A DNA stretch of 33,150 bases from Nemertoderma westbladi. Its lineage: Eukaryota; Animalia; Xenacoelomorpha. A program made the translations under genes and the position numbers. The notes under the pieces were generated by a model, which worked only from the letters and a program-made list of their open reading frames with translations, searched no databases and was not told the origin of the DNA. Below are positions 1-26,956 of this stretch, one piece after another. Within the stretch, counting starts at the first letter, position 1. Each line of letters starts with the position of its first letter. The stretch lies in assembly GCA_032718475.1 (NCBI GenBank), contig JAUCBJ010002529.1:1-33150 (forward strand), read 5' to 3'.

Positions 1-3000
1 AACCAACCTGGACTCCCTCCTCCAACCAACCTGGACTTCCTCCCCCAACCAACCTGGACTCCCTCCTCCAACCAACCTGGACTCCCTCCTCCAACCAACC
101 TGGACTCCCTCCTCCAACCAACCTGGACTCCCTCCTCCAACCAACCTGGACTCCCTCCCCCAACCAACCTGGACTCCTCCTCCAACCAACCTGGACTCCC
201 TCCTCCAACCAACCTGGACTCCCTCCTCCAACCAACCTGGACTCCCTCCTCCAACCAACCTGGACTCCCTCCTCCAACCAACCTGGACTCCCTCCTCCAA
301 CCAACCTGGACTCCCTCCCCCAACCAACCTGGACTCCCTCCCCCAACCAACCTGGACTCCCTCCTCCAACCAACCTGGACTCCCTCCTCCAACCAACCTG
401 GACTCCCTCCTCCAACCAACCTGGACTCCCTCCTCCAACCAACCTGGACTCCCTCCTCCAACCAACCTGGACTCCCTCCTCCAACCAACCTGGACTCCCT
501 CCTCCAACCAACCTGGACTCCCTCCTCCAACCAACCTGGACTCCCTCCTCCAACCAACCTGGACTCCCTCCTCCAACCAACCTGGACTCCCTCCTCCAAC
601 CAACCTGGACTCCCTCCTCCAACCAACCTGGACTCCCTCCTCCAACCAACCTGGACTCCCTCCTCCAACCAACCTGGACTCCCTCCTCCAACCAACCTGG
701 ACTCCCTCCTCCAACCAACCTGGACTCCCTCCTCCAACCAACCTGGACTCCCTCCTCCAACCAACCTGGACTCCCTCCTCCAACCAACCTGGACTCCCTC
801 CTCCAACCAACCTGGACTCCCTCCTCCAACCAACCTGGACTCCCTCCTCCAACCAACCTGGACTCCCTCCTCCAACCAACCTGGACTCCCTCCTCCAACC
901 AACCTGGACTCCCTCCTCCAACCAACCTGGACTCCCTCCTCCAACCAACCTGGACTCCCTCCTCCAACCAACCTGGACTCCCTCCTCCAACCAACCTGGA
1001 CTCCCTCCTCCAACCAACCTGGACTCCGTCCTCCAACCAACCTGGACTCCGTCCTCCAACCAACCTGGACTCTCTCCCGCAACCAACCTGGACTCCCTCC
1101 TCCAACCAACCTGGACTCCCTCCTCCAACCAACCTGGACTCCCTCCTCCAACCAACCTGGACTCCCTCCTCCAACCAACCTGGACTCCCTCCTCCAACCA
1201 ACCTGGACTCCCTCCTCCAACCAACCTGGACTCCCTCCTCCAACCAACCTGGACTCCCTCCTCCAACCAACCTGGACTCCCTCCTCCAACCAACCTGGAC
1301 TCCCTCCTCCAACCAACCTGGACTCCCTCCTCCAACCAACCTGGACTCCCTCCTCCAACCAACCTGGACTCCCTCCTCCAACCAACCTGGACTCTCTCCC
1401 GCAACCAACCTGGACTCCCTCCCCCAACCAACCTGGACTCCGTCCTCCAACCAACCTGGACTCCCTCCTCCAACCAACCTGGACTCCCTCCTCCAACCAA
1501 CCTGGACTCCCTCCTCCAACCAACCTGGACTCCCTCCTCCAACCAACCTGGACTCCCTCCTCCAACCAACCTGGACTCCCTCCTCCAACCAACCTGGACT
1601 CCCTCCCGCAACCAACCTGGACTCCGTCCTCCAACCAACCTGGACTCCCTCCTCCAACCAACCTGGACTCCCTCCCCCAACCAACCTGGACTCCCTCCCC
1701 CAACCAACCTGGACTCCGTCCTCCAACCAACCTGGACTCCCTCCTCCAACCAACCTGGACTCCCTCCTCCAACCAACCTGGACTCCCTCCTCCAACCAAC
1801 CTGGACTCCCTCCTCCAACCAACCTGGACTCCCTCCTCCAACCAACCTGGACTCCCTCCTCCAACCAACCTGGACTCCCTCCTCCAACCAACCTGGACTC
1901 CCTCCTCCAACCAACCTGGACTCCCTCCCCCAACCAACCTGGACTCCCTCCTCCAACCAACCTGGACTCCCTCCTCCAACCAACCTGGACTCCCTCCTCC
2001 AACCAACCTGGACTCCCTCCTCCAACCAACCTGGACTCCCTCCTCCAACCAACCTGGACTCCCTCCTCCAACCAACCTGGACGCCCTCCTCCAACCAACC
2101 TGGACTCCCTCCTCCAACCAACCTGGACTCCCTCCTCCAACCAACCTGGACTCCCTCCTCCAACCAACCTGGACTCCCTCCTCCAACCAACCTGGACTCC
2201 CTCCTCCAACCAACCTGGACTCCCTCCTCCAACCAACCTGGACTCCCTCCTCCAACCAACCTGGACTCCCTCCTCCAACCAACCTGGACGCCCTCCTCCA
2301 ACCAACCTGGACTCCCTCCTCCAACCAACCTGGACTCCCTCCTCCAACCAACCTGGACTCCCTCCTCCAACCAACCTGGACTCTCTCCCGCAACCAACCT
2401 GGACTCCCTCCTCCAACCAACCTGGACTCCCTCCTCCAACCAACCTGGACTCCCTCCTCCAACCAACCTGGACTCCCTCCTCCAACCAACCTGGACTCCC
2501 TCCTCCAACCAACCTGGACTCCCTCCTCCAACCAACCTGGACTCCCTCCTCCAACCAACCTGGACTCCCTCCTCCAACCAACCTGGACTCCCTCCTCCAA
2601 CCAACCTGGACTCCCTCCTCCAACCAACCTGGACTCCCTCCTCCAACCAACCTGGACTCCCTCCTCCAACCAACCTGGACTCCCTCCTCCAACCAACCTG
2701 GACTCCCTCCTCCAACCAACCTGGACTCCCTCCTCCAACCAACCTGGACTCCGTCCTCCAACCAACCTGGACGCCCTCCTCCAACCAACCTGGACTCCCT
2801 CCTCCAACCAACCTGGACGCCCTCCTCCAACCAACCTGGACTCCCTCCTCCAACCAACCTGGACTCTCTCCCGCAACCAACCTGGACTCCCTCCCGCAAC
2901 CAACCTGGACTCCGTCCTCCAACCAACCTGGACTCCCTCCTCCAACCAACCTAGGACTCCCTCCCCCAACCAACCTGGACTCCCTCCCCCAACCAACCTG

Positions 3001-6000
3001 GACTCCGTCCTCCAACCAACCTGGACTCCTTCCTCCAACCAACCTGGACTCCCTCCCCCAACCAACCTGGACTCCCTCCCCCAACCAACCTGGACTCCGT
3101 CCTCCAACCAACCTGGACGCCCTCCTCCAACCAACCTGGACTCCTCCTCCAACCAACCTGGACTCTCTCCCGCAACCAACCTGGACTCCCTCCTCCAACC
3201 AACCTGGACTCCGTCCTCCAACCAACCTGGACTCCTTCCTCCAACCAACCTGGACTCTCTCCCGCAACCAACCTGGACTCCCTCCCGCAACCAACCTGGA
3301 CTCCCTCCTCCAACCAACCAGGACTCCCTCCCCCAACCAACCTGGACTCCCTCCCCCAACCAACCTGGACTCCTTCCTCCAACCAACCTGGACTCCTTCC
3401 CCCAAACAACCTGGACTTCCTCCTCCAACCAACCTGGACTCTCTCCCGCAACCAACCTGGACTCCGTCCTCCAACCAACCTGGACTCCTTCCTCCAACCA
3501 ACCTGGACTCTCTCCCGCAACCAACCTGGACTCCGTCCTCCAACCAACCTGGACTCCTTCCTCCAACCAACCTGGACTCTCTCCCGCAACCAACCTGGAC
3601 TCCCTCCCGCAACCAACCTGGACTCCGTCCTCCAACCAACCTGGACTCCGTCCTCCAACCAACCTGGACTCTCTCCCGCAACCAACCTGGACTCCTTCCT
3701 CCAACCAACCTGGACTCCTTCCTCCAACCAACCTGGACTCCCTCCTCCAACCAACCTGGACTCCTTCCTCCAACCAACCTGGACTCTTTCCTCCAACCAA
3801 CCTGGACTCCCTCCCCCAAACAACCTGGACTCCGTCCTCCAACCAACCTGGACTCCTTCCTCCAACCAACCTGGACTCTCTCCCGCAACCAACCTGGACT
3901 CCGTCCTCCAACCAACCTGGACTCCTTCCTCCAACCAACCTGGACTCTCTCCCGCAACCAACCTGGACTCCGTCCTCCAACCAACCTGGACTCCTTCCTC
4001 CAACCAACCTGGACTCTCTCCCGCAACCAACCTGGACTCCCTCCCGCAACCAACCTGGACTCCGTCTTCCAACCAACCTGGACTCCCTCCTCCAACCAAC
4101 CAGGACTCCCTCCCCCAACCAACCTGGACTCCCTCCCCCAACCAACCTGGACGCCCTCCTCCAGCCAACCTGGACTCCCTCCTCCAACCAACCTGGACTC
4201 CCTCCTCCAACCAACCTGGACTCCCTCCTCCAAACAACCTGGACTCCCTCCTCCAACCAACCTGGACTCCCTCCTCCAACCAACCTGGACTCCATCCTCC
4301 AACCAACCTGGACTCCCTCCTCCAACCAACCTGGACTCTCTCCCGCAACCAACCTGGACGCCCTCCTCCAACCAACCTGGACGCCCTCCTCCAACCAACC
4401 TGGACTCCCTCCTCCAACCAACCTGGACGCCCTCCTCCAACCAACCTGGACTCCCTCCTCCAACCAACCTGGACTCTCTCCCGCAACCAACCTGGACTCC
4501 GTCCTCCAACCAACCTGGACGCCCTCCTCCAACCAACCTGGACTCCCTCCTCCAACCAACCTGGACGCCCTCCTCCAACCAACCTGGACTCCCTCCTCCA
4601 AACAACCTGGACTCCCTCCTCCAACCAACCTGGACTCCCTCCTCCAACCAACCTGGACTCCATCCTCCAACCAACCTGGACTCCCTCCTCCAACCAACCT
4701 GGACTCTCTCCCGCAACCAACCTGGACGCCCTCCTCCAACCAACCTGGACTCCCTCCTCCAACCAACCTGGACGCCCTCCTCCAACCAACCTGGACTCCC
4801 TCCTCCAACCAACCTGGACTCCCTCCTCCAACCAACCTGGACTCTCTCCCGCAACCAACCTGGACTCCCTCCTCCAACCAACCTGGACGCCCTCCTCCAA
4901 CCAACCTGGACTCCCTCCTCCAAACAACCTGGACTCCCTCCTCCAACCAACCTGGACTCCCTCCTCCAACCAACCTGGACTCCATCCTCCAACCAACCTG
5001 GACTCCCTCCTCCAACCAACCTGGACTCTCTCCCGCAACCAACCTGGACGCCCTCCTCCAACCAACCTGGACTCCCTCCTCCAACCAACCTGGACGCCCT
5101 CCTCCAACCAATCTGGACGCCCTCCTCCAACCAACCTGGACTCTCTCCCGCAACCAACCTGGACTCCCTCCTCCAACCAACCTGGACTCCCTCCTCCAAC
5201 CAATCTGGACTCCCTCCTCCAACCAACCTGGACTCCTTCCCCCAACCAACCTGGACGCCCTCCTCCAACCAACCTGGACTCCCTCCCCCAACCAACCTGG
5301 ACGCCCTCCTCCAACCAACCTGGACTCCCTCCTCCAAACAACCTGGACTCCCTCCTCCAACCAACCTGGACTCCCTCCTCCAACCAACCTGGACTCCCTC
5401 CTCCAACCAACCTGGACGCCCTCCTCCAACCAACCTGGACTCCCTCCTCCAACCAACCTGGACTCTCTCCCCCAACCAATCTGGACTCCCTCCTCCAACC
5501 AACCTGGACTCCTTCCCCCAACCAACCTGGACGCCCTCCTCCAACCAACCTGGACTCCCTCCTCCAACCAACCTGGACTCCCTCCTCCAACCAACCTGGA
5601 CTCCCTCCTCCAACCAACCTGGACTCCCTCCTCCAACCAACCTGGACTCCCTCCTCCAACCAACCTGGACGCCCTCCTCCAACCAACCTGGACTCCCTCC
5701 TCCAACCAACCTGGACTCTCTCCCCCAACCAATCTGGACTCCCTCCTCCAACCAACCTGGACTCCTTCCCCCAACCAACCTGGACTCCCTCCTCCAACCA
5801 ACCTGGACTCCCTCCTCCAACCAACCTGGACGCCCTCCTCCAACCAACCTGGACTCCCTCCTCCAACCAACCTGGACTCTCTCCCCCAACCAATCTGGAC
5901 TCCCTCCTCCAACCAACCTGGACTCCCTCCTCCAACCAACCTGGACGCCCTCCTCCAACCAACCTGGACGCCCTCCTCCAACCAACCTGGACTCCCTCCT

Positions 6001-6375
6001 CCAACCAACCTGGACTCTCTCCCCCAACCAATCTGGACTCCCTCCTACAACCAACCTGGACTCCTTCCACCAACCAACCTGGACGCCCTCCTCCAACCAA
6101 CCTGGACTCCCTCCTCCAACCAACCTGGACGCCCTCCTCCAACCAACCTGGACTCCCTCCTCCAACCAACCTGGACTCCCTCCTCCAACCAACCTGGACT
6201 CCCTCCTCCAACCAACCTGGACGCCCTCCTCCAACCAACCTGGACTCCCTCCTCCAACCAACCTGGACTCTCTCCCCCAACCAACCTGGACTCCTTCCTC
6301 CAACCAACCTGGACTCCCTCCTCCAACCAACCTGGAGTCCCTCCTCCAACCAACCTGGACTCCATCCTCCAACCA
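1..6375. repeat. 23-bp tandem array (about 275 copies, runs off the window start); unit AACCAACCTGGACTCCCTCCTCC
   Basis: Period 23 read directly (unit starts at 1, 24, 47...). On the minus strand the unit is TGGTTGGAGGAGGGAGTCCAG-GT, matching the last 21 nt of exon 6355-6610 plus its GT. Confidence 0.98.
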
Positions 6376-6610
6376 CTGCACTACCATTGACCCGTTCCAT
6401 TCCCCCTTGATCTCAGCGAACATCGATCTGTTTCCAGACCTTGGGGAGGAGTCGGGGGGACCGAAACATTTACAGGTTATCTGATGTCGCTTCCCGCCTA
6501 TGTCCCAGAAGGACTTGGTGTGGAAGACAACCTCCGCATTGTAGCCAGTACGATCGCAAGTTATGTAACATTTACCGCCCATCTCAAACCACGGCACAGA
6601 AATGATATTC
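6355..6610 (-). CDS. OSBPL9: OSBPL9/ORP9 internal coding exon (ORD domain)
   Basis: Acceptor ttttctttag at 6611-6620. Translates (R)NIISVPWFEMGGKCYITCDRTGYNAEVVFHTKSFWDIGGKRHQITCKCFGPPDSSPRSGNRSMFAEIKGEWNGSMVVQWLEDGVQ, matching the ORP9 'RSILTVPWVELGG...GEWNG' segment. Phase 2 start fits the preceding exon. The donor CAG|GTTGGT at 6355/6354 is the first of many identical candidates, so the 3' boundary is inferred. Confidence 0.9.
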
Positions 6611-7585
6611 CTAAAGAAAATTTCAATGGAGTTAATATCCTAAAGAATTGTTGGGTTGTTCTCACAAAAAGTGGCCAAACTTTTATGTCAAAATGTCCAT
6701 GGATTCGCACGGTTATATTTCCAAACGACACAGATTTAACCCCATGAACCTATATACCAATCGGAAGAGCGGAAATCTGCTCATATTTCAGCAAATTTTC
6801 AACAGATTCCATTCACAACCTAGAGAATGACACCATTTCAAATATCGAAAATGCATGTTTTTTGAAATGTCACATTGAATTATTTTGAAATATTTGGCTT
6901 CTGAGCTAAAGTAATGAAAGCAAAGGTTCCACATACCATACATCAAAATAAAGCCAATTTAATGCTCTTTCACATACTATTGGTGGTTTTCAACCGAAGC
7001 TACTCACATTTTATATATTTAATATTTACTAACAATTAATTACTCCGTCACTAGGATTTTGTCCACCATGTAACGCTCGTTTTTATGACATGGTTTTTTT
7101 ATATTTATTCACAACATCTCCAAGTGAGATATTTCTAAACGGCGATTTATTTAGCTATCAGCAGGTAAAAAAATTACAAGAATTCGTTCATTAGAACTCA
7201 AGCGTTGTGCGAAAACGTAAATCTACATAAAATACCGTCATTAGGAATGTCCTCAATGTAACGCTACTTTGAATAGCGATAACTTTTGCTTTATTAATCA
7301 TATCGACACCATTGAGGGCTCATATGAAAGAGCAATCGCAGATCTATCGAATCACATATTTGATTTTAATATAGTTTCAAAACAGACTATAGTCAACGCC
7401 ATGCTAATGAAAAATGTCTTCAATGTCCATCATGTAACGCATGTAACGCTGTCACAATCAATAGCGTTACACTTGAGACATGTCCATCATGTAACGTAGT
7501 TGGGCCTGAACATACCTAGCAGTACGAGTGGCGTTTCTTTTTACAAATTAGGCAGTCAGGGTCAAATTAACAATAGTCGATGGTT

Positions 7586-7638
7586 TCTGGTTTTCAGTAT
7601 TTAGTATAAACAGTTTATACTAAATACTGAAAACCAGA
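7586..7638. repeat. Perfect 53-bp palindrome (26-bp arms, 1-nt centre)
   Basis: TCTGGTTTTCAGTATTTAGTATAAAC-A-GTTTATACTAAATACTGAAAACCAGA. Confidence 0.95.
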
Positions 7639-7781
7639 CAGTATACTGTAGTAGTCTCATGAGTTTGTTTACCTTTCTTTATTTCGGTTCTAAAACAGTA
7701 CTTCTTAATCGTCATGCAATTACAATTGTCAAACGGAATTAAGCGTGTTGTGTCCGGTAAGAACTTCTCGATTGAATTTAT

Positions 7782-8350
7782 AGTGATGGTGTTACACGTG
7801 AAAGACATAAAGATTAAGTTAGTGATGGGATGGCGTTACACGTGAAGGACTTAGAGATTAAGTTAGTGATGGCGTTACACGTGAAGGACTTAGAGATTAA
7901 GTTAGTGATGGCGTTACACGTGAAGGACATAGAGATTAAGTTAGTGATGGGATGGCGTTACACGTGAAGGACTTAGAGATTAAGTTAGTGATGGCGTTAC
8001 ACGTGGAGGACTTAGAGATTAAGTTAGTGATGGCGTTACACGTGAAGGACTTAGAGATTACGTTAGTGATGGCGTTACACGTGAAGGACTTCGAGATTAA
8101 GTTAGTGATGGCGTTACACGTGAAGGACTTAGTTACACGTGAAGGACTTAGAGATTAAGTTAGTGATGGGATGGCGTTACACGTGAAGGACTTAGAGATT
8201 AAGTTAGTGATGGCGTTACACGTGAAGGACTTAGAGATTAAGTTAGTGATGGCGTTACACGTGGAGGACTTAGAGATTAAGTTAGTGATGGCGTTACACG
8301 TGAAGGACTTAGTTACACGTGAAGGACTTAGAGATTACGTTAGTGATGGT
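7782..8350. repeat. 39-bp tandem array (about 14 copies) inside the Sola2-like element
   Basis: Unit GATGGCGTTACACGTGAAGGACTTAGAGATTAAGTTAGT; explains the MALHVKDLEIKLV repeat ORFs. Confidence 0.95.
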
Positions 8351-8910
8351 TTTAAGGATTCCGTTAACTATTTTGTACAATTATTGTTACAATAGTATGT
8401 ATATATTCATATTGTATGTATACAATAATACAAACTAAATAATTTGCTGATTTGAAAAATATTATTTTCAGCCATTGGGTCGATAAATAAATCCGTAAAT
8501 GACATTAAAGTGACTGTTGAATTTCTGATATATATTTTAAATGTGAAATCCTGGATACTGATTGGCTAACAAGTAGCGTTACATTCGAGACAACGAGTTA
8601 GATTGTGGGCGTTTTGTGAAATGAAGGCTGCTGATTGGCTAACAAGTAGCGTTACACCAGGGACAAAATGTTACATTGTGGACATTAGTTTTTCGCGAAT
8701 AAAACCTTACGACTTTACTAAATAAACGGCCCACTAGTGTATTCGAAATCGCCTCATCGAGTGCTCTCGAAATATTATATATTTATATGGTTTTGACAAA
8801 AAAAAATTTGACAATTTTTTTCTCAAAATTTTGGCCACTTTTTGTGAGAACAACCCTGTTGAACATTCAATTTCACTACTTATGTGTCAAAGTAAACATA
8901 TTTCCGTATT

Positions 8911-8968
8911 GGTGAAAAATATCGACACTAGAGCAATATCGCGAGAAAAAATATCGAGAGTAAAAAAT
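8911..8968 (+). mobile_element. Degenerate left-end fragment of the foldback family seen at 25884-26913
   Basis: GGTGAAAAATATCGACACTAGAGCAATATCGCGAGAAAAAATATCGAGAGTAAAAAATAA resembles GGTGAAAAATATTGAGACTTGAAAAATATCGAG...AGTAAAAATAA at 25890. Confidence 0.5.
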
Positions 8969-8988
8969 AAAAAACCAAGTATGTATTT

Positions 8989-10040
8989 GTAACCCGACAC
9001 ATAGAAAGGGGTCAAGTGACAAAAAAAATTTTTTTTAACTTTTTGTTGGTTTCATCAGAATTTCACATTGAAAACAACCATTTGTTAACATCTCTCTTTG
9101 TTTTTGAGTTATTGTCGATTTAGAAAGATAAGGTTCAGAGATAATTTCATAGCAACATTCTGAGAAAATTCGATTTAAAATTTTCAAACCTTCCCGCCAT
9201 TTTCAGTGGAGTGATTTTTAAACATCATTTTGAACATCTCTGATGGATAATATTCAATAACATCAACATAATTATAGTCACTGTTACTTTAAACCGGCAA
9301 AACTGTAGCAAAAACTTTAAATGTTCATATGATTTAATTACGTGAACGAAATACGCAATTTTGGGATTGTTTTGTAGCTCTTGATAAATTCCACACAACA
9401 TACTTTATTTATAACAATTGGCAATAACTATTAATCGTATATTCAATTGTATTTTTGCTGTTTATGTAGATCCAGTGTAGATCTCTGGCGCAACTTTAGA
9501 CGTACGTTTTTAGTACGCAGATCCAGAGATACCCAAGGAAGACATGTTTTAGTTTTTTTATATTTTGATTTTTGAAGAGACAATATGTGAGACAATATGA
9601 AAACTAGGTGTAGGATATAAACACTACTTAAATACCGGTATTTATTTCGTCACTGGAAACATGGGGTTTGAAAATATGGGCTTTCTCAAAAAATATTGCC
9701 GAACTTTGAAGGTTCGCTGTTACTTGTAAATTAGGTCTACTGGAACAATTACGAGCCGATTTGAAGATAATTTTATGTGCTTTCTATATAACCAATTCAT
9801 TGCCAAGAATGTAACACCAACTCCGAAAAAAACATAAAAACAAAAAACAAAAACATAAAAAACATAAATCATAGTCAGACAGACAGACAATTTAAGTGTT
9901 CGAATTTTGGATTTTCGGAATTTTGATCTGAAAACAAAAAAAAATATGAATTTATATTTGTTTTCTAATATTTTTTCATATTTGAAATTTCTGGTAAATG
10001 AGATTATTTGAAGTTAACCCCTTTCTATGTGTCGGGTCAC
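8989..10040. mobile_element. Non-autonomous DNA transposon, Sola1-like (1.05 kb)
   Basis: 24-bp TIR GTRACCCGACACATAGAAAGGGGT (1 mismatch). Flanks ATTT (8985-8988) and ACTT (10041-10044) look like an AWWT-type 4-bp TSD with one mismatch. A TGT...ACA (Ginger-type) reading is possible but gives a worse TSD. Confidence 0.7.
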
Positions 10041-10399
10041 ACTTTCAGTGTAGAGTTTTCGTTGGTACACTGAAAAAAGTATCTGCCTGTTTTTTTTAAA
10101 ACATCCACTTCCGATATAAAACGAGCTGTTCGTAATTTTATAAGTGCCACTTATTTTTTTCATCCACTTAAATAAAAAAAATAAAATAGAAAAATTTTGA
10201 TTTCTGAAAAAGTGCCTGTTATATATTTAAAGTTGATGTTATAATATTCTGACGCATGATGAATGAAGTGGCAGTTATGATTTAAACTAGCTGTTTAAAT
10301 GGAAGCGGCACTTTTTTTGATAAGTGATACTTATATGTTTCAAATTCATGCTTATTTAATAAAAATAAAGTGACTGTTTATATTTGTAAACTGGGCCTT

Positions 10400-11070
10400 T
10401 AAAAAATAAACTATACTTTGTCAAATAAGTAGCACTTTTGGAGGTTTGAGATTGGAAACTGCCACTTTATTTTTATTCAACTTAACTGCCAGTTTAGTAA
10501 GAAAATCGCCAATTTTAAATAAGAAGATGCACTTTTGTTAGAAGTGGCAGTGAAATACGTCAAAGTCCTGCTTATTCAAATTTAAGGAAAAACAGTTGGT
10601 TTTTAAACCGTGCCTTTAAAAACATACTCCTTTTGGTAAATAAGTAGCAATTCTTAAATTAATTTTGGGTTTTAAATGAGAAAGTGGCATTTTATTTCAT
10701 TGAGTGGCATTTTATTTCTTTGAGTGGCATTTTATTTCTTTGAGTGGCATTTTGGCAAGAGAATTGCCATTTATAAATAAGAAGAGGCACTTTTACTAGA
10801 CGTGATAGTGAAATTAAAAAATAAACTATACTTTGTCAAATAAGTACCACTTTTGGAGGTTTGAGATTGGAAACTGCCACTTTATTTTTATTGGAGGTTT
10901 GAGATTGGAAACTGCCACTTTATTTTTATTGGAGGTTTGAGATTGGAAACTGCCACTTTATTTTTATTCAACTTAACTGCCAGTTTAGTAAGAAAATCGC
11001 CAATTTTAAATAAGAAGATGCACTTTTGTTAGAAGTGGCAGTTAAATACATGTCCTGCTTATTCAAATTT
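10400..11070. repeat. Internal direct duplications in the left arm of the CACTG element (~150-bp block twice, 38-bp unit three times, 20-bp unit three times)
   Basis: Block AAAAAATAAACTATACTTTGTC...AGAAGTGGCAG at ~10400 and ~10816. TTGGAGGTTTGAGATTGGAAACTGCCACTTTATTTTTA x3 at ~10853-10966. TTGAGTGGCATTTTATTTC repeats at ~10683-10753. Confidence 0.85.
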
Positions 11071-11939
11071 AGAGACAGGGGGAAACTGGACGCAAATTCC
11101 ATCTTGGCGAATTGATATATTGAGTGTCATTTTGGCAAAAGAAATGCCATTTATAAATAAGAAGAGGTACTTTTACTAGAAGTGACAGTGAAATACATCA
11201 AAGTCATTCTTATTAATAAAAAAAACACACACATATTTTGGTAAATGTATTTCTTATGTATGTATCTGTCTTAGATTAATATTGGGTTTGATATGGAAAG
11301 CGGAATTTTATTTCTTTGATTGGCTTCTTGTGAATAAATGGCCAATAAACAGTAAATTTATTATTTCGATTTAATATTTCTATTAATATGGGAAATGATT
11401 TAAAAACGGCCACTTTATTTATATAAAAATGAGTTTGTTTACAAAAAACAACTTCAACAAATATTAGCCTTAATAGCGCCCTTATTTTGCCCATATATGG
11501 TAGGATCATAATTCTTCATTTTGATTGGTTGGTTGGTCCTTAAAGAGAGAGCCTTCTGCCCAGTCAGTTAATAGCTTACCGGTAGTGTATAAGGCAGGAA
11601 AGGCCTGTATGAGGTGACAGTACTGCATCACACACAGTACAGCAGTACCGGTAATACACTGTAATATGGTACAGTTATCAGAGGCAATACTGCAATAGGC
11701 TATCGGTACCGGACCATCTTGCATACAGCACAGCATACGGAGGGGATCTACTATCTATACACCCCCACCAACCCTAATACTGTCATATGATAGTGTCTGA
11801 CAGTATCAGAGTGTACTGGTCTGCCCGCTGTCGCCTGCAGGTACGATTGTATGTGTACACACCTGTAACAGTGCAACAGTAACATGCATGCCCATTACAG
11901 CATTACTGCATTAGAGGCCTACATCATTACTCTACAGCT

Positions 11940-12113: not shown

Positions 12114-12149
12114 TAAGGCAGTAAGGTGGAAGTTAGGAAGTTCATTCAT

Positions 12150-16112: not shown

Positions 16113-16821
16113 TTAAACTGCCACTTTTATTCAAGCAACTTGCATTCTTTTATCAAACAAGAGGATCTCGTCCAAATAGAAAGTCCGTGTTATTCAAGAA
16201 AAAGGCCATCTTATAAAAATTAAACAACCACTTATTAATTTTATAACTGCAGGTTTGATAAGCCCAATAAGTGTTATTTGAAATTTTTTAACCGCCGGTT
16301 TTCCAAAAAAGCGCCTCGTTCTGGTGTTGCACTTTAAGCGCAACTTTTTTGGAAAACCGGTGGTTTTTTAGTAAAAAAACGCCAGTTACTTCTTTCAGTG
16401 TAGCTAACTAGCTTGTTTTTACAAAAACTATAGATGTAAAAATTTAATAATTTTATTTTAAGAAAATCACTGAAATTTTATTTTATTTTCTATAAAGTTA
16501 TCTCTAGCTATTACACCATGTCCTGAAATAAAGAATCGATATTCAGGTATACCTGCCCACCCAAAAAAATGGCATATTACATGCGCATGGGAAAATAAAG
16601 TAGAACTTTTTTTCACTATTCTCGTTTTTTTCCCATGTAATACCTATAATTATATTCTTAAATTGGTACTTCTTTGTTGCTCAATTATTAGTTTTGATTT
16701 ATTTAATAAAAGATTACAATACGATACAGCTCACTTCAATAATTGACAAATTAGAACTCACTGATCGCTGCATTCACAATACCGTTGTGGGCTGCATTTA
16801 ATATATTTAATGTAATCTTAC

Positions 16822-17084
16822 CTCCCATACGCACTGGGAAATGTTGCAATATAGTCTTCGTCGTAGTCAAGTAAGGTAATACATCCCTGGCCGATATTAT
16901 GAACTCCTATTGACAACCCCAGGAACTTTGACTTGGTGTAGATATGAGCTTGTACTTGTATTTTGTTGACGATATTTTCTGCGTAGAAGGCGGATATGGG
17001 CGGGTGGTGTGAGACCTGTTCGGCTACGAAGGCGAGGTCGCTGTCTGCGCACCAAGGCACCGGACCAGTAGCCAATGACGGAGA
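16822..17084 (-). CDS. OSBPL9: OSBPL9/ORP9 internal coding exon with the OSBP signature
   Basis: tttacag|TCT...GGGAG|gtaag, 263 nt, phase 0 to 2. Translates [87 protein letters not shown](R). Confidence 0.97.
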
Positions 17085-17150
17085 CTGTAAATGTAAAACT
17101 AATGGTAAACTATTGGATTGGGGGGGGGGGGGGGTAGACCTAATGTTTAA

Positions 17151-18212
17151 CCCTTTCGGTACCATGGCACATACGTCTGTTCCATGTTCCATGGGTATTG
17201 CGCCATGACACACACGTCTGTTCCATGACATTTATTTGATTTCTAAGAAGGGAAAATGATGCTGGACTCTGCTGGACTGCTGAAAGTACATGCTTCTATA
17301 TGTTAGCGGCGCATTTCAGCTTGTATCTACTGTAATTTAACTACGGTCGGCCTACTGCAGACCTGCTTACAGACTGCCAGACTTTAGCAATAACAGAATA
17401 AGGCAGTACTGCAGTAAGGTACGCCTAAACTGACTAAACAGCCTAAACAAAAAAGCCTAAACAAACTGACCGACAGACAGTCTGGATAGGGCCAAAAGTA
17501 AAAACTGACAACGGAAATGAAATCCTTGACCAGGAAAACCCCCATAGAGAGAATTTTAATTAGCTAATGTGATTCCTTATATTTTTGACGGACAGACAGA
17601 CCGACAGACAGTCTGGATAGGGTTAAAAGTGAAAACTCACAGCGGCAATGAAATCCTTAACCAGGAAAACCCTCATAGAGAGAATTTTAATTAGCTAATG
17701 TGATTCCTTATATTTTTGACGGACAGACAGACCGACAGACAGACAGTCTGGATAGGGTCAAAAGTGAAAACTGACAGTGGAAATGAAATACTTGACCAGG
17801 AAAACCCCCATAGAGAGAATTTTAATTAGCTAATGTGATTCCTTATATTTTTGACGGACAGACAGACCGACAGACAGTCTGGATAGGGTTAAAAGTGAAA
17901 ACTCACAGCGGCAATGAAATCCTTGACCAGGAAAACCCTCATAGAGAGAATTTTAATTAGCTAATGTGATTCCTTATATTTTTGACGGACAGACAGACCG
18001 ACAGACAGTCTGGATAGGGTCAAAGGTAAAAACTGACAGCGGAAATGAAATCCTTGACCAGGAAAACCCCCATAGCGAGAATGTTAGTAGATTTTATTCT
18101 TTCTAAAGTCTTGACAGACAAACTGACAGAAAGACTGACAGACTTCAGAAATTCATTAATTAGAGTTGGGCACTTGGGGGTTTGAATAATTTCCAGTTAG
18201 GTACCGAAAGGG
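17151..18212. mobile_element. piggyBac-type MITE (1.06 kb) with internal 131-bp repeats
   Basis: TTAA TSD (17147-17150, 18213-18216) and 13-bp TIR CCCTTTCGGTACC; no coding remnant seen. Confidence 0.93.
17470..18085. repeat. 131-bp tandem repeat (about 4.7 copies, alternating A/B variants) with GACA runs
   Basis: TCTGGATAGG recurs at 17481, 17612, 17747, 17878 and 18009. Confidence 0.93.
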
Positions 18213-18251
18213 TTAAAATACAAAGTCACAAATTGAACGTTCTAGTGGAAT

Positions 18252-19946
18252 TCTTCCTACTCCAACACACTGCCTATATTGGTACGAGTTCCTTACCCGG
18301 TCTTCCTACTCCAACACACTGTCTATATTGGTACGAGATCCTTACCCGGTCTTCCTACTCCAACACACTGCCTATATTGGTACGAGTTCCATACCCGGTC
18401 TTCCTACTCCAACACACTGCCTATATTGGTACGAGTTCCTTACCCGGTCTTCCTACTCCAACACACTGCCTATATTGGTACGAGTTCCTTACCCGGTCTT
18501 CCTACTCCAACACACTGCCTATATTGGTACGAGTTCCTTACCCGGTCTTCCTACTCCAACACACTGCCTATATTGGTACGAGTTCCTTACCCGGTCTTCC
18601 TACTCCAACACACTGCCTATATTGGTACGAGTTCCTTACCCGGTCTTCCTACTCCAACACACTGCCTATATTGGTACGAGTTCCTTACCCGGTCTTCCTA
18701 CTCCAACACACTGCCTATATTGGTACGAGTTCCTTACCCGGTCTTCCTACTCCAACACACTGCCTATATTGGTACGAGTTCCTTACCCGGTCTTCCTACT
18801 CCAACACACTGCCTATATTGGTACGAGTTCCTTACCCGGTCTTCCTACTCCAACACACTGCCTATATTGGTACGAGTTCCTTACCCGGTCTTCCTACTCC
18901 AACACACTGCCTATATTGGTACGAGTTCGTTACCCGGTCTTCCTACTCCAACACACTGCCTATATTGGTACGAGTTCCTTACCCGGTCTTCCTACTCCAA
19001 CACACTGTCTATATTGGTACGAGTTCCTTACCCGGTCTTCCTACTCCAACACACTGCCTATATTGGTACGAGTTCCTTACCCGGTCTTCCTACTCCAACA
19101 CACTGCCTATATTGGTACGAGTTCCTTTCCCGGTCTTCCTACTCCAACACACTGCCTATATTGGTACGAGTTCCTTAACCGGTCTTCCTACTCCAACACA
19201 CTGTCTATATTGGTACGAGTTCCTTACCCGGTCTTCCTACTCCAACACACTGCCTATATTGGTACGAGTTCCTTACCCAGTCTTCCTACTCCAACACACT
19301 GCCTATATTGGTACGAGTTCCTTAACCGGTCTTCCTACTCCAACACACTGTCTATATTGGTACGAGTTCCTTACCCGGTCTTCCTACTCCAACACACTGC
19401 CTATATTGGTACGAGTTCCTTACCCGGTCTTCCTACTCCAACACACTGCCTATATTGGTACGAGTTCCTTACCCGGTCTTCCTACTCCAACACACTGCCT
19501 ATATTGGTACGAGTTCGTTACCCGGTCTTCCTACTCCAACACACTGCCTATATTGGTACGAGTTCCTTACCCGGTCTTCCTACTCCAACACACTGTCTAT
19601 ATTGGTACGAGTTCCTTACCCGGTCTTCCTACTCCAACACACTGCCTATATTGGTACGAGTTCCTTACCCGGTCTTCCTACTCCAACACAATACCTATAT
19701 TGGTACGAGTTCCTTACCCGGTCTTCCTACTCCAACACACTGCCTATATTGGTACGAGTTCCTTACCCGGTCTTCCTACTCCAACACACTGCCTATATTG
19801 GTACGAGTTCCTTACCCGGTCTTCCTACTCCAACACACTGCCTATATTGGTACGAGTTCCTTACCCGGTCTTCCTACTCCAACACACTGTCTATATTGGC
19901 ACGAGTTCCTTACCCGTTCCTTACCGGTACGAGTTCCTTACCCGGT
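18252..19946. repeat. 49-bp tandem array (about 34 copies) abutting the exon donor
   Basis: Unit TCTTCCTACTCCAACACACTGCCTATATTGGTACGAGTTCCTTACCCGG. Its minus strand contains ACCGG|GTAAGGAACTCGTACC, identical to the exon-intron junction at 19942/19941. Confidence 0.98.
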
Positions 19947-20107
19947 TTTGCGTTCCTGGCAGGTTCCACCAGCATTGGAATGTTTCACCGAGTATGGGAT
20001 TATAAGGTTTCTTAGCAACCGGGGATTTCCGACCTGCGTGGAATGACGACAAATACCAACGAACCGTCGCCATAAATCGCTCCTTTGGAGTCGAACATTG
20101 GGCGATT
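19942..20107 (-). CDS. OSBPL9: OSBPL9/ORP9 internal coding exon
   Basis: ttcgtttag|A ATC...AAC CGG|gtaagg, 166 nt, phase 2 to 0. Translates [55 protein letters not shown] ([10 protein letters not shown] motif). Confidence 0.96.
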
Positions 20108-20118
20108 CTAAACGAAGA

Positions 20119-23100
20119 TTAAAAAATAGGAGATTATTAGGTTAAATGTAAAGGGACATCCGTTAAAAATAGGAGATTATAGCTATAGGTCAAATGTAAA
20201 GGGACATCCGTTAAAAATAGGAGATTATAGGTTAAATGTAAAGGGACATACATCCATTAAAAATAGGAGATTATATGTTACATGTAAAGGGACATCGGTT
20301 AAAAATAGGAGATTATTAGGTTAAATTTATAGGGACATCCGTTAAAAATAGGAGATTATAGGTTAAATGTAAAGGGACATCCGTTAAAAATAGGAGATTA
20401 TAGGTTAAATTTAAAGGGACATCCGTTAAAAATAGGAGATTATAGGTTAAATGTAAAGGGACATCCGTTAAAAATAGGAGATTATAGGTTAAATGTAAAG
20501 GGACATCCGTTAAAAATAGGAGATTATAGGTTAAATGTAAAGGGACATCCGTTAAAAATAGGAGATTATAGGTTAAATGTAAAGGGACATACATCCATTA
20601 AAAATAGGAGATTATAGGTTACATGTAAAGGGACATCGGTTAAAAATAGGAGATTATTAGGTTAAATTTATAGGGAAATCCGTTAAAAATAGGAGATTAT
20701 AGGTTAAATGTAAAGGGACATCCGTTAAAAATAGGAGATTATAGGTTAAATGTAAAGGGACATCCGTTAAAAATAGGAGATTATAGGTTAAATGTAAAGG
20801 GACATCCGTTAAAAATAGGAGATTATAGGTTAAATGTAAAGGGACATCCGTTAAAAATAGGAGATTATAGGTTGAATGTAAAGGGACATCCGGTTAAAAA
20901 TAGGAGATTATAGGTTAAATGTAAAGGGACATCCGTTAAAAATAGGAGATTATAGGTTAAATGTAAAGGGACATCCGTTAAAAATAGGAGATTATATAGG
21001 TTAAATGTAAAGGGACATCCGTTAAAAATAGGAGATTATAGGTTAAATGTAAAGGGACTGGGACATCCGTTAAAAATCGGAGATTATAGGTTAAATGTAA
21101 AGGGACATCCGTTAAAAATAGGAGATTATAGGTTAAATGTAAAGGGACATCCGTTAAAAATAGGAGATTATAGGTTAAATGTAAAGGGACATCCGTTAAA
21201 AATAGGAGATTATAGGTTAAATGTAAAGGGACATCCGTTAAAAATAGGAGATTATAGGTTAAATGTAAAGGGACATTGTTTAAAAATAGGAGATTATATA
21301 AGTTAAATGTAAAGGGACATCCGTTAAAAATAGGAGATTATAGGTTAAATGTAAAGGGACATCCGTTAAAAATAGGAGATTATAGGTTAAATGTAAAGGG
21401 ACATCCGTTAAAAATAGGAGATTATATAGGTTAAATGTAAAGGGACATCCGTTAAAAATAGGAGATTATAGGTTAAATGTAAAGGGACATACGGTTAAAA
21501 ATAGGAGATTATAGGTTAAATGTAAAGGGACATCCAGATCCGTTAAAAATAGGAGATTATAGGTTAAATGTAAAGGGACATCCGTTTAAAATAGGAGATT
21601 ATAGGTTAAATGTAAAGGGACCTCGGTTAAAAATAGGAGATTATAGGTTAAATGTAAAGGGACATCCGTTAAAAATAGGAGATTATAGGATTAATGTAAA
21701 GGGACATCCGTTAAAAATAGGAGATTATAGGTTAAATGTAAAGGGACATTGGTTAGAAATAGGAGATTATAGGTTAAATGTAAAGGGACATCCGTTACAA
21801 AAATAGGAGATTATAGGTTAAATGTAAAGGGACATCCGTTAAAAATAGGAGATTATAGGTTAAATGTAAAGGGACATCCGTTAAAAATAGGAGATTATAG
21901 GTTAAATGTAAAGGGACATCCGTTAAAAATAGGAGATTATAGGTTAAATGTAAAGGGACATCCGTTACAAAAATAGGAGATTATAAGTTAAATGTAAAGG
22001 GACATTGGTTAGAAATAGGAGATTATAGGTTAAATGTAAAGGGACATCCGTTACAAAAATAGGAGATTATAGGTTAAATGTAAAGGGACATCCGTTAAAA
22101 ATAGGAGATTATAGGTTAAATGTAAAGGGACATCCGTTAAAAATAGGAGATTATAGGTTAAATGTAAAGGGACATCCGTTAAAAATAGGAGATTATAGGT
22201 TAAATGTAAAGGGACATCCGTTAAAAATAGGAGATTATAGGTTAAATGTAAAGGGACATCCGTTACAAAAATAGGAGATTATAGGTTAAATGTAAAGGGA
22301 CATCCGTTAAAAATAGGAGATTATAGGTTAAATGTAAAGGGACATCCGTTAAAAATAGGAGATTATAGGTTAAATGTAAAGGGACATCCGTTACAAAAAT
22401 AGGAGATTATAGGTTAAATGTAAAGGGACATCCGTTAAAAATAGGAGATTATAGGTTAAATGTAAAGGGACATCCGTTAAAAATAGGAGATTATAGGTTA
22501 AATGTAAAGGGACATTGGTTAGAAATAGGAGATTATAGGTTAAATGTAAAGGGACATCCGTTACAAAAATAGGAGATTATAGGTTAAATGTAAAGGGACA
22601 TCCGTTAAAAATAGGAGATTATAGGTTAAATGTAAAGGGACATCCGTTAAAAATAGGAGATTATAGGTTAAATGTAAAGGGACATCCGTTAAAAATAGGA
22701 GATTATAGGTTAAATGTAAAGGGACATCCGTTAAAAATAGGAGATTATAGGTTAAATGTAAAGGGACATCCGTTAAAAATAGGAGATTATAGGTTAAATG
22801 TAAAGGGACATCCGTTAAAAATAGGAGATTATAGGTTAAATGTAAAGGGACATCCGTTAAAAATAGGAGATAATAGGTTAAATGTAAAGGGACATCCATT
22901 AAAAATAGGAGATTATAGGTTAAATGTAAAGGGACATCGGTTAAAAATAGGAGATTATTAAGTTAAATTTATAGGGACATCCGTTAAAAATAGGAGATTA
23001 TAGGTTAAATGTAAAGGGACATCCGTTAAAAATAGGAGATTATAGGTAAAATGTAAAGGGACATCCGTTAAAATAGGAGATTATAGGTTAAATGTAAAGG

Positions 23101-25883
23101 GACATCCGTTAAAAATAGGAGATTATAGTTTAAATGTAAAGGGACATCCGTTAAAAATTGAAGATTATCTAGGTTAAATGTAAAGGGACATCCGTTAAAA
23201 ATAGGAGATTATAGGTTAAATGTAAAGGGACATCCGTTAAAAATAGGAGATCATAGGTTAAATGTAAAGGGAGATCCGGTTAAAAATAGGAGATTTTAGG
23301 TTAAATGTAAAGGGACATCCGGTTAAAAATAGGAGATTTTAGGTTAAATGTAAAGGGACATCCGTTAAAAATAGGAGATTATAGGTTAAATATAAAGGGA
23401 CATCCGTTAAAAATTGGAGATTATATTAAATTAAAGGGACATCCGTTAAAAATATGAGACTATTAGGTTAAATGTAAAGGGACATCCGTTAAAAATAGGA
23501 GATTATAGGTTAAATGTAAAGGGACATCCGTTAAAAATAGGAGATTATAGGTTAAATGTAAAGGGACATCCGGTTAAAAATAGGAGATTTTAGGTTAAAT
23601 GTAAAGGGACATCCGTTAAAAATAGGAGATTATAGGTTAAATATAAAGGGACATCCGTTAAAAATTGGAGATTATATTAAATTAAAGGGACATCCGTTAA
23701 AAATATGAGACTATTAGGTTAAATGTAAAGGGACATCCGGTTAAAAATAGGAGATTATAGGTTAAATTTAAAGGGACATCCATTAAAAATAGGAGATTAT
23801 AGGTTAAATTTAAAGGGACATCCATTAAAAATAGGAGATTATAGGTTAAATTTAAAGGGATATCCATTAAAAATAGGAGATTATAGGTTAAATTTAAAGG
23901 GACATCCATTAAAAATAGGAGATTATAGGTTAAATTTAAAGGGACATCCATTAAAAATAGTAGATTATAGGTTAAATTTAAAGGGACATCCATTAAAAAT
24001 AGTAGATTATAGGTTAAATGTAAAGGGACATCCGTTAAAAATTGGAGATTATATTAAATTAAAGGGACATCCGTTAAAAATATGAGACTATTAGGTTAAA
24101 TGTAAAGGGACATCCGGTTAAAAATAGGAGATTATAGGTTAAATTTAAAGGGACATCCATTAAAAATAGGAGATTATAGGTTAAATTTAAAGGGACATCC
24201 ATTAAAAATAGGAGATTATAGGTTAAATTTAAAGGGTCATCCATTAAAAATAGGAGATTATAGGTTAAATTTAAAGGGACATCCATTAAAAATAGGAGAT
24301 TATAGGTTAAATTTAAAGGGACATCCATTAAAAATAGGAGATTATAGGTTAAATGTAAAGGGACATCCGTTAAAAATAGGAGATTATAGGTTAAATGTAA
24401 AGGGACATCCGTTAAAAATAGGAGATTATAGGTTAAATGAAAAAGGGACATCCGTTAAAAATAGGAGATTATAGGTTAAATGTAAAGGGACATCCGTTAA
24501 AAATAGGAGATTATAGGTTAAATGTAAAGGGACATCCGTTACAAAAATAGGAGATTATAGGTTAAATGTAAAGGGACATCCGTTAAAAATAGGAGATTAT
24601 AGGTTAAATGTAAAGGGACATCCGTTAAAAATAGGAGATTATAGGTTAAATGTAAAGGGACATCCGTTAAAAATAGGAGATTATAGGTTAAATGTAAAGG
24701 GACATCCGTTAAAAATAGGAGATTATAGGTTAAATGTAAAGGGACATCCGTTAAAAATAGGAGATTATAGGTTAAATGTAAAGGGACATCCGTTAAAAAT
24801 TGGAGATTATAGGTTAAATGTAAAGGGACATCCGTTAAAAATAGGAGATTATAGGTTAAATGTAAAGGGACATCCGTTACAAAAATAGGAGATTATAGGT
24901 TAAATGTAAAGGGACCTCGGTTAAAAATAGGAGATCATAGGTTAAATGTAAAGGGACATCCGTTAAAAATAGGAGATTATAGGTTAAATGTAAAGGGACA
25001 TCCGTTAAAAATAGGAGATTATAGGTTAAATGTAAAGGGACATACATCCATTAAAAATAGGAGATTATATGTTACATGTAAAGGGACATCGGTTAAAAAT
25101 AGGAGATTATAGGTTAAATGTAAAGGGACATCCGTTAAAAATAGGAGATTATAGGTTAAATGTAAAGGGACATCCGTTAAAAATAGGAGATTATAGGTTA
25201 AATATAAAGGGACATCCGTTAAAAATAGGAGATTATAGGTTAAATGTAAAGGGACATCCGTTAAAAATTGGAGATTATAGGTTAAATGTAAAGGGACATC
25301 CGTTAAAAATAGGAGATTATAGGTTAAATGTAAAGGGACATCCGTTACAAAAATAGGAGATTATAGGTTAAATGTAAAGGGACATCCGTTAATAATAGGA
25401 TATTATAGGTTAAATGTAAAGGGACATCCGTTAAAAATTGAAGATTATAGGTTAAATGTAAAGGGACATCCGTTAAAAATAGGATATTATAGGTTAAATG
25501 TAAAGGGACATCCGTTAAAAATAGGAGATTATAGGTTAAATGTAAAGGGACATCCGTTAAAAATAGGAGATTATAGGTTAAATGTAAAGGGACATCCGTT
25601 AAAAATAGGAGATTATAGGTTAAATGTAAAGGGACATCCGTTAAAAATAGGATATTATAGGTTAAATGTAAAGGGACATCCGTTAAAAATAGGATATTAT
25701 AGGTTAAATGTAAAGGGACATCCGTTAAAAATTGAAGATTATCTAGGTTAAATGTAAAGGGACATCCGTTAAAAATAGGAGATTATAGGTTAAATGTAAA
25801 GGGACATCCGTTAAAAATAGGAGATCATAGGTTAAATGTAAAGGGAGATCCGTTAAAAATAGGAGATTATAGGTTAAATGTAA
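20119..25883. repeat. 42-bp tandem array (about 137 copies) filling the intron
   Basis: Unit AGGTTAAATGTAAAGGGACATCCGTTAAAAATAGGAGATTAT. One further diverged partial unit at 26914-26950 runs into the splice donor. Confidence 0.98.
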
Positions 25884-26913
25884 GGTAATGGTGAAAAATA
25901 TTGAGACTTGAAAAATATCGAGACTTGAAAAATATCGAGAGTAAAAATAACGAGAGTAAAAATATCGAGAGTTGAAAATTAACGTGATTAAAAAATATCG
26001 AGAGTAAAAATATCGAGAGTAAAAATATCGAGTGTTGAAAAATATCGAGTGTTGAAAAATATCGAGTGTTGAAAAATATCGAGAGTAAAAATATCGAGTG
26101 TTGAAAAATATCGAGTGTTGAAAAATATCGAGAGTAAAAATATTGCATTTTGCTTGATCATTTTATTTAGAATTATGGAACAATATTGCAGTGCATTGGT
26201 TTCAACAGTGCAAGTGATGTATTACACCTTGGGTACCCATTTACCAGATTTATTATACTAGCTAGTTTTTGCTATTTTTTTAATAAATATTATAAAAGAA
26301 GTGCTAGCTATAAATTTTGATAAATATTATAAATATTGTTAAATCTTATACTGTATTAGAACACGTACTGTATAAGCTACCAAATGTTGATAAATATTGT
26401 TGTTCTAGAACATTTATAGTAAAAAAAAATTATCATACAACCCTTATTTAAAAAAATTGTTACTATCGATATTTTTACTCTCAATATTTTTCAACACTCG
26501 ATATTTTTACTCTCGATATTTTTCAACACTCGATATTTTTACTCTCGATATTTTTCAACACTCGATATTTTTACTCTCGATATTTTTCAACACTCTATAT
26601 TTTTCAACACTCGATATTTTTACTCTCGATATTTTTCAACACTCGATATTTTTACTCTCGATATTTTTACTCTCGATATTTTTCAACACTCGATATTTTT
26701 ACTCTCAATATTTTTCAACACTCGATATTTTTCAACACTCGATATTTTTCAACACTCGATATTTTTACTCTCGATATTTTTACCCTCGATATTTTTACTC
26801 TCGATATTTTTTGAACTCTCGATATTATCGTTATTTTTCAACATTTTCGTTATTTTTACTCGCGTTATTTTTACTCTCGATATTTTTCATGTCTCGATAT
26901 TTTTCAATATAAC
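25884..26913. mobile_element. Foldback/Mutator-like non-autonomous element (1.03 kb) with modular long TIRs
   Basis: 9-bp TSD TAAATGTAA (25875-25883, 26914-26922). The arms are built from 15-17-bp AAAAATATCGAGAGT / GAAAAATATCGAGTGTT units in opposite orientation; G...C termini. Confidence 0.88.
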
Positions 26914-26956
26914 TAAATGTAAAGTGACATCGGTTAAAAATACGAAATAAACTTAC

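What the first reader, a model, noticed from the sequence alone, without database searches (positions are those of the whole stretch)
1..26956. Junction-seeded satellites: three introns of one gene inflated by amplifying their own splice-boundary sequence
Seen: three unrelated arrays (23, 49 and 42 bp) each abut an OSBPL9 exon, and each unit is made from local junction sequence rather than a shared satellite family. The 23-mer is exon end + GT. The 49-mer is 5 exon nt + the first 44 intron nt. The 42-mer is the body of a mini-intron. Removing arrays and TEs leaves roughly 80 nt (20108-26956) and 150 nt (17085-19941). Inference: a recurrent mechanism amplifies DNA at exon-intron borders (for example R-loop or paused-polymerase breaks repaired by repeated template re-entry or rolling-circle copying), turning tiny introns into multi-kb ones while leaving the coding exons intact.
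Basis: partly seen in the sequence, partly recalled or inferred. Interest (0 to 1): 0.85.

Follow-up and report, generated by a model that had tools for sequence, protein, structure and literature searches.

The report
Giant splice-donor minisatellites in OSBPL9 introns
In an animal's OSBPL9 gene, two exon ends with their splice signal and the body of one tiny intron are copied head-to-tail 34 to over 270 times, yet the one spliced transcript assembly seen uses the original signals, so these are likely harmless, unusually large examples of a repeat type already known from lancelets and human genes.

Summary
Five OSBPL9 exons lie on the minus strand. Three unrelated, locus-born arrays abut them: a 23-mer (277+ units; 21 exon nt + GT), a 49-mer (34 units; 5 exon + 44 intron nt) and a 42-mer (about 135 units). 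Collapsed, the two closed introns are 79 and about 145 nt. Independent DNA data hold the arrays at tens of times single-copy depth. One transcript-like run joins the exons through the first donor at both donor arrays. The two donor arrays match the 'mirage' minisatellites of lancelets and the human F7-type VNTRs. The 42-mer holds no splice site and is an ordinary intronic minisatellite between 9-nt direct repeats. Most likely: short local duplications, filtered by selection, then stepwise expansion. A junction-targeted (R-loop) process is not shown: a crude null gives only weak excess (P 0.014-0.049, in a window chosen for the pattern), seven other arrays sit in transposons, and the 42-mer has the wrong strand skew. 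The scan noted the same pattern in other windows of this genome and in other genomes (unchecked notes). What is unusual is scale and density, not kind.

The parts
27613..27824 (-). OSBPL9 exon A (variable region before the sterol-binding domain)
   Evidence: AG/GT borders and open joined frame; no homolog alignment covers it and its junction to exon B was not seen in reads
26957..27116 (-). OSBPL9 exon B
   Evidence: PF01237, tblastn; joined to exon C in run X4
26914..26956 (-). Donor of intron B-C (14 nt unique) plus first, diverged part-unit of the 42-mer, beginning with a 9-nt direct repeat
25884..26913 (.). 1030-bp foldback (MULE-like by its 9-bp target duplication; label recalled) element inserted into the first 42-mer unit, with 15-17-bp subterminal repeats
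   Evidence: identical 9-bp flanks; inverted arms
20122..25883 (-). 42-bp intronic minisatellite, about 135 units, no splice site and no AG in the consensus
   Evidence: held by DNA runs X1, X2, X3
19942..20107 (-). OSBPL9 exon C
   Evidence: PF01237; covered exactly by an X4 contig joined to exons B and D
18252..19946 (-). 49-bp donor-spanning ('mirage') minisatellite: 5 exon nt + 44 intron nt, 34 full units after two truncated ones, 29 decoy donors
   Evidence: 79-letter cyclic contig in X1, X2, X3
17147..18216 (.). TTAA-flanked non-autonomous element (piggyBac-like; label recalled) with a 131-bp internal repeat, in intron C-D
16822..17084 (-). OSBPL9 exon D
   Evidence: joined to C and E in X4
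6611..16821 (-). Intron D-E, 10.2 kb, about 0.6 kb host DNA plus nested terminal-inverted-repeat elements (6653-8856, 8988-10041, 10066-16402 with 14452-16116 inside); no junction array
   Evidence: multi-copy depth at 6653-7760
6355..6610 (-). OSBPL9 exon E; its donor at 6354 is the first of the repeated donors
   Evidence: PF01237; X4 contig ends on the window at 6355 and runs on into other sequence
1..6375 (-). 23-bp donor-spanning ('mirage') minisatellite: 21 exon nt + GT, at least 277 units, 261 downstream copies keep CAG|GTTGG; runs off the window
   Evidence: held at high depth by X3

Best explanation
These are three locus-born minisatellites, two of them copies of the exon end plus its splice donor, that likely began as single short tandem duplications in small introns, likely survived because the first donor stays intact and is the one used, and likely grew stepwise by repeated unequal exchange or slippage. 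Shown: unit anatomy, collapsed intron sizes, use of the first donor in one sample, multi-period block structure. Inferred: (1) seed by microhomology-guided slippage or break repair (clear for the 42-mer with its 9-nt direct repeat, at most 1 nt for the 49-mer, unreadable for the 23-mer); (2) selection removes duplications inside exons and leaves intronic or donor-spanning ones, so in a compact gene the survivors crowd at junctions; (3) exon-derived units are GC-rich in an AT-rich background (exons 0.50, host intron 0.29) and may expand more easily; (4) the arrays are neutral cargo that, with transposons, inflates introns.
For: The first four downstream donors of the 49-mer array all give premature stops, so only the first is viable. 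9-nt direct repeat at both ends of the 42-mer array. Variant units recur at lags 16, 7, 23, 6, 11 in the 23-mer (0 of 500 shuffles reach it) and 6, 9 in the 42-mer (P 0.006). X1 and X2 show 42-mer junctions that the window lacks (checked), as unequal exchange would give. A diverged two-copy 64-bp duplication spans the orthologous donor in unrelated animal OSBPL9 loci (TRF in 5 of 11 loci scanned), so such seeds arise and persist elsewhere. Same anatomy and silent decoys in print.
Against: A pooled null over the four collapsed introns gives P = 0.049 for at least 2 of 3 donor-spanning arrays and 0.014 for all three near a junction. All three arrays over 1.5 kb are at junctions, while those in transposons are at most 1.1 kb. 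No useful microhomology flanks the 49-mer. The 49-mer shows no significant periodic structure (P 0.36). The 49-mer array begins with two short units that restart at the donor. The splicing evidence is contigs from one sample, which drop rare forms.
Confidence: 0.6

Rival explanations
1. A transcription- or splicing-coupled mutational process (R-loops or G-quadruplexes behind a paused polymerase, or repair that loses homology at exon ends) seeds and re-seeds duplications preferentially at exon-intron borders in this lineage.
For: Weak excess over the pooled null (P 0.014-0.049). Both donor units are G-rich on the non-template strand (GC skew +0.71 and +0.42; G4Hunter 0.96 and 0.39). Two truncated units restart at the exon C donor. 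[quoted passage not shown] Unchecked scan notes report many junction arrays in this genome and a donor bias in a worm.
Against: The 42-mer (5.8 kb) has skew -0.54 and no splice site. Seven of ten array regions are in transposons. The donors of exons A and D and all five acceptors carry no array. Several periods in the variant maps argue against one rolling-circle event. The window was chosen because of the pattern, so the P values are inflated in significance. Neither unit has four G3 tracts.
Confidence: 0.25
2. The decoy donors are kept by selection: they load U1 snRNP to protect long, transposon-filled introns from premature cleavage, sharpen exon definition, or feed a nonsense-decay switch.
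For: 261 of about 276 downstream 23-mer copies and 29 of about 35 downstream 49-mer units keep the donor. The repeated donors match the U1 consensus at 7 of 9 positions, like the donors of exons B and D. U1 protection of long introns is recalled, not from a call.
Against: Arrays are only 1-3% diverged, so intact donors need no selection. Donor positions are not spared: 6 of 18 variant alleles in 9 of 23 positions for the 23-mer (P 0.40), and 5 of 10 in 9 of 49 for the 49-mer, an excess (P 0.023, post hoc). No alternative junction appears in X4. The 10.2-kb intron has no such array.
Confidence: 0.08
3. The arrays, or most of their length, are an assembly artefact.
For: Only short-read contigs were available; none spans an array. 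In X1 the 42-mer consensus contig has depth 202 against 361 for the 49-mer, the reverse of the window's ratio.
Against: In X3 (another sample and study) the 49-mer cyclic contig has depth 948 and the 42-mer 1429, against 24 for exon E: 39.5 and 59.5 times, where the window predicts 24.4 and 69.5. X2, the same sample as X1, has 42-mer contigs at about 1240, so the X1 ratio is not stable. Structured variant maps are not what a collapse or stutter gives.
Confidence: 0.05
4. The units belong to dispersed satellite families that inserted next to exons.
For: The whole genome is not held, so other loci could not be searched.
Against: Units are built from this gene's own exon and intron bases. X3 depth is about what this one locus predicts. 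The loose ends listed for repeat contigs are further units, the foldback end or the donor-side unit.
Confidence: 0.02

Closest known systems
Amphioxus 'mirage' minisatellites (Adh3, globins BflGb6 and BflGb9, troponin C, PGBD5). Seen: matching passages of PMC3087553 and PMC3902484. The original Adh3 paper (PMC117041) is not held and is known to me only as cited there.
   Same: Tandem copies spanning an exon-intron boundary, made from the gene's own sequence, units in the reported 10-160 bp range, carrying cryptic splice signals, regular splicing undisturbed; origin described as unclear, turnover by unequal or intra-strand crossing-over suggested.
   Different: Copy number: 2-7 in the passages read against 34 and 277+ here; multi-kb arrays in three of four successive introns. 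No lancelet name among the 120 listed of 2015 protein hits (best identities 61-75%). The 42-mer spans no boundary. Somatic instability untested.
Human donor-spanning VNTRs: F7 intron 7 (37 bp), CBS intron 13, 6-16, lamin B2, PDGF. Seen: abstract, introduction and passages of PMC1557585.
   Same: First monomer spans the exon end and donor (F7: 4 exon + 33 intron nt; here 5 + 44); identical downstream pseudo-donors; the most upstream site is used.
   Different: 5-25 copies there; about 1.3 and 11 times the top of that range here. In CBS and 6-16 two pseudo-sites are also used; none seen here, within the limits of contigs.
Variable internal tandem repeats at exon-intron boundaries of human duplicated genes. 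Seen: passages of PMC2812944.
   Same: Minisatellite expansion at boundaries lengthens introns.
   Different: On average 30 bp x 4 copies, and often creating new introns or alternative forms. Here the intron positions checked look old and no new intron is seen.

Membership tests
mirage minisatellite (23-mer and 49-mer) | Tandem unit spans an exon-intron boundary of the host gene | tested here: met
   21 exon nt + GT; 5 exon + 44 intron nt; both donors confirmed by X4 junctions
mirage minisatellite (42-mer) | Tandem unit spans an exon-intron boundary of the host gene | tested here: not met
   Starts 14 nt after the donor, ends 11-14 nt before the acceptor; consensus has no AG
mirage minisatellite | Unit derived from the locus itself, not a shared family | tested here: met
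   No cross-match within the window; X3 depth fits one locus; genome-wide search not possible
mirage minisatellite | Regular splicing is undisturbed despite cryptic signals | tested here: met
   X4 contigs join B|C, C|D, D|E and E|next through the first donors; one sample, contigs only
mirage minisatellite | Length polymorphism between haplotypes | tested here: inconclusive
   42-mer junctions absent from the window in X1 and X2; depth ratios differ between runs but also within one sample
mirage minisatellite | Somatic instability (reported for Adh3) | not testable with these tools
   Needs long reads or small-pool PCR from single animals
F7-type donor VNTR | Only the most upstream of identical donors is used | tested here: met
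   No X4 cover beyond either first donor; rare use would be missed
dispersed satellite DNA family | Same unit at many unlinked loci | tested here: inconclusive
recursive splice sites (AG|GT ratchet points; features recalled) | AG|GT preceded by a polypyrimidine tract | tested here: not met
   Each 23-mer copy has CAG|GT, but the unit is 16 of 23 purines with no pyrimidine tract
rolling-circle amplification product | One constant higher-order period | tested here: not met
   Several lags with similar support in the 23-mer and 42-mer maps

The most novel reading that the evidence does not exclude
This animal lineage has a splice-junction-biased tandem amplification process that acts genome-wide as a main route of intron and genome expansion, building multi-kb arrays of hundreds of functional-looking donors that the spliceosome ignores by a strict first-site rule.
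Probability: 0.25. Interest if true: 0.75.

Novelty: new variant of a known kind. Interest (0 to 1): 0.4.

Why it matters
The repeat type is known, but at this scale it is a natural experiment on 5' splice-site choice: one real donor followed by about 260 equal decoys in 6 kb, which first-come or exon-definition models must explain. It also shows a route of intron growth that needs no transposon: arrays supply about 13.8 kb of the 27.8 kb from exon A to the window start. If a genome-wide count showed an excess at junctions over a fair null, it would point to a transcription-linked mutational process not found in my literature searches. In practice such arrays mislead gene predictors: the exon E frame stays open through all 6.3 kb of the 23-mer array.

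Tried and rejected
No RNA holder was listed by the run search; run X4 is listed as 'DNA?' and I treat it as a transcriptome only from its behaviour. No raw or long reads were served; exon C had no cover in the DNA runs and exon E little in X1 (a filter leaves records out), which says nothing. An exact search for a 31-nt piece of the 49-mer in metagenome contigs found 0 matches, which is uninformative for an animal repeat. Metagenome loci (15) are all distant, so no close ortholog was available; 11 of 15 were scanned, the four weak hits were left out. Depth as a measure of allele length was rejected because X1 and X2, one sample, disagree. Recursive splicing and rolling-circle origin were considered and not supported (membership tests). 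Selection on decoy donors: no consistent signal. Nine AG-creating variants lie in the 42-mer array; I drew no conclusion. A blastp ranking of fetched homologs did not place the organism (top hits 63-65%). Literature: ten searches listed no paper on genome-wide or multi-kb junction arrays in an invertebrate; the library lacks most subscription journals and I judged most rows by title and abstract start. I read no supplements; those of PMC3087553 and PMC3902484 hold the mirage alignments and may give larger copy numbers.
Full report
Observation. The host gene is on the minus strand. Five exons (27824-27613, 27116-26957, 20107-19942, 17084-16822, 6610-6355) have AG/GT borders and join to one frame with no stop. 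The four exons tested hit the oxysterol-binding domain above its cut-off. Exon D finds 2015 homologs; the named ones among the 120 listed are mostly labelled OSBPL9, at 61-75% identity across insects, vertebrates, a crustacean and a coral. The organism is an animal with no close relative among the listed hits.

Anatomy of the units. The 23-mer is the last 21 exon bases (20 of 21 match the consensus) plus GT; 261 downstream copies keep CAG|GTTGG. The 49-mer is 5 exon plus 44 intron bases; two truncated units of 17 and 11 nt come first, then 34 full units, giving 29 decoy donors. The 42-mer holds neither splice site. It begins 14 nt after the donor, ends 11-14 nt before the acceptor, has no AG in its consensus, and is bounded by a 9-nt direct repeat. 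A 1030-bp foldback element with a 9-bp target duplication sits in its first unit. With one unit left and transposons removed, the introns are 79 and about 145 nt. The units are unrelated to each other and to the rest of the window.

Are the arrays real? Five of six listed runs hold the gene, from three studies. In X3, a different sample and study from the possible source, the 49-mer forms a 79-letter cyclic contig at depth 948 and the 42-mer a 72-letter one at 1429, against 24 for a contig over exon E. That is 39.5 and 59.5 times single copy; the window predicts 24.4 and 69.5. The 23-mer bins sum to over 2000 in X3. The tool warns that contig depth is no copy number, and X1 and X2 from one sample disagree on the 42-mer, so I take this as order of magnitude only. 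No record spans an array, so exact lengths are unverified. X1 and X2 also show two 42-mer junctions that differ from the window: the foldback end followed by an ordinary unit, and the donor-side unit preceded by an ordinary unit (the second motif is absent from the array). Each rests on one contig per run; they suggest another haplotype reshaped by unequal exchange.

Splicing. X4 is listed as 'DNA?' but holds 0.40 of the words of a stretch that is 0.42 exon, and its contigs cover exons only, at depth 2179 and 2695. A 1491-letter contig covers 19942-20108 and continues into exon D on one side and exon B on the other. A 582-letter contig covers 6355-6612, continues into exon D, and on the far side continues into 30 listed letters that I read by hand as the next OSBPL9 exon in frame, resembling the homolog at that place. 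So both donor arrays are skipped from the first donor. No X4 contig lies on repeat bases beyond either donor. This is one sample, and contigs drop rare forms. The first four downstream donors at exon C would all give premature stops; at exon E, +23 and +46 shift the frame and +69 is in frame.

How they arose. The variant maps show blocks of units duplicated at several spacings (23-mer lags 16, 7, 23, 6, 11, reached by 0 of 500 shuffles; 42-mer lags 6, 9, P 0.006; 49-mer not significant, P 0.36), with 1-3% divergence. That fits young arrays grown by many slippage or unequal-exchange steps. The seed is easy to read for the 42-mer (9-nt direct repeat), has at most 1 nt of microhomology for the 49-mer, and is unreadable for the 23-mer. 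Is closeness to junctions surprising? Within a 79-nt intron it is forced (P 1.00); within 145 nt a 49-nt duplication spans the donor with P 0.34. Pooled over the four collapsed introns, P is 0.049 for at least two donor-spanning arrays and 0.014 for all three near a junction. This null ignores transposon DNA, where seven of the ten array regions of 100 bp or more lie, and ignores that the window was picked for the pattern. Against my reading, all three arrays over 1.5 kb are at junctions. For an R-loop model, the two donor units are G-skewed on the non-template strand but the 42-mer is skewed the other way. An unselected comparison helps: animal OSBPL9 loci from metagenomes carry a diverged two-copy 64-bp duplication across the donor that corresponds to the end of exon D (TRF in 5 of 11 loci scanned, by eye in a sixth; the six look like one lineage). 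Donor-spanning seeds therefore arise and last in other animals without any runaway. Those loci, and L002 for intron B-C, also share intron positions with the window, so the arrays filled old introns and did not create them.

Comparison with what is known. Tandem repeats spanning exon-intron borders are named 'mirages' in lancelets, with regular splicing, length instability and an unclear origin (PMC3087553, passages; PMC3902484, passages). Human F7, CBS, 6-16, lamin B2 and PDGF carry donor-spanning minisatellites of 5-25 units, and F7 minigenes show oriented choice of the most upstream donor (PMC1557585, abstract, introduction and passages). The 23-mer and 49-mer meet the defining features that I could test; the 42-mer does not and is an ordinary intronic minisatellite. 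Both papers came up in my own search, run together with the look-up of earlier scan notes that also named them; I took the word 'mirage' from those notes and checked it in the papers. The notes describe the same pattern in other windows of this genome (19 windows noted, this kind in all those shown) and in other genomes; I did not test them. Ten searches listed no paper on multi-kb or genome-wide junction arrays in an invertebrate.

Verdict. The kind of element is known; the scale (34 and 277+ donor copies, multi-kb arrays in three of four successive introns) is beyond the published cases I read. The most likely account is ordinary tandem duplication, a selective filter that leaves survivors at junctions of a compact gene, and stepwise growth tolerated by first-donor splicing (0.6). 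A junction-biased mutational process remains open (0.25) and is what a genome-wide count should test. Interest 0.4; new variant of a known kind.

Noticed in passing
L006 2626-2751 (also L007-L011): Animal OSBPL9 loci in metagenome contigs carry a diverged two-copy 64-bp duplication spanning the donor at the position of window exon D's end: a small, old mirage found without looking for one.
   Followed up: partly
window 10066-16402: 6.3-kb terminal-inverted-repeat element with CACTG ends and TA flanks, carrying a broken ORF with a weak PWWP match (12326-12550, E 0.0012, below the curated cut-off) and a 105-bp x 10 array.
   Followed up: partly
window 14452-16116: TTAA-flanked element nested in the 105-bp array; reading frames at 15211-15701 look like a decayed transposase end by eye but have no Pfam hit. 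Its ends resemble those of the element at 17147-18216.
   Followed up: partly
window 6653-8856 and 8988-10041: Two further terminal-inverted-repeat elements in intron D-E; the first is multi-copy in runs X1 and X3 (depth 500-3000 against 24 for exon E in X3) and holds a 39-bp array.
   Followed up: partly
window 18252-19941: Five of ten variant alleles in the 49-mer array fall in the nine donor positions (P 0.023, post hoc), as if decoys were being weakened; the 23-mer does not show this.
   Followed up: partly
window 1-6609 (minus strand): The exon E reading frame has no stop through the whole 23-mer array, so a retained intron or a gene predictor would give a repeat protein of over 2000 residues; a result of base composition.
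   Followed up: no
window 20131-20143: The last 42-mer unit carries a one-base insertion that makes a CTAAT branch-point-like motif about 30 nt before the acceptor; the same variant also occurs in some internal units.
   Followed up: no
window 6363-6365 region of exon E: The exon differs from the 23-mer consensus at one base; the exon's form recurs in only three other units.
   Followed up: no
window 28235-28975 and 29842-30159: Further inverted-repeat elements upstream of exon A, sharing short motifs with the interior of the foldback element (by eye; one search lists the second).
   Followed up: no
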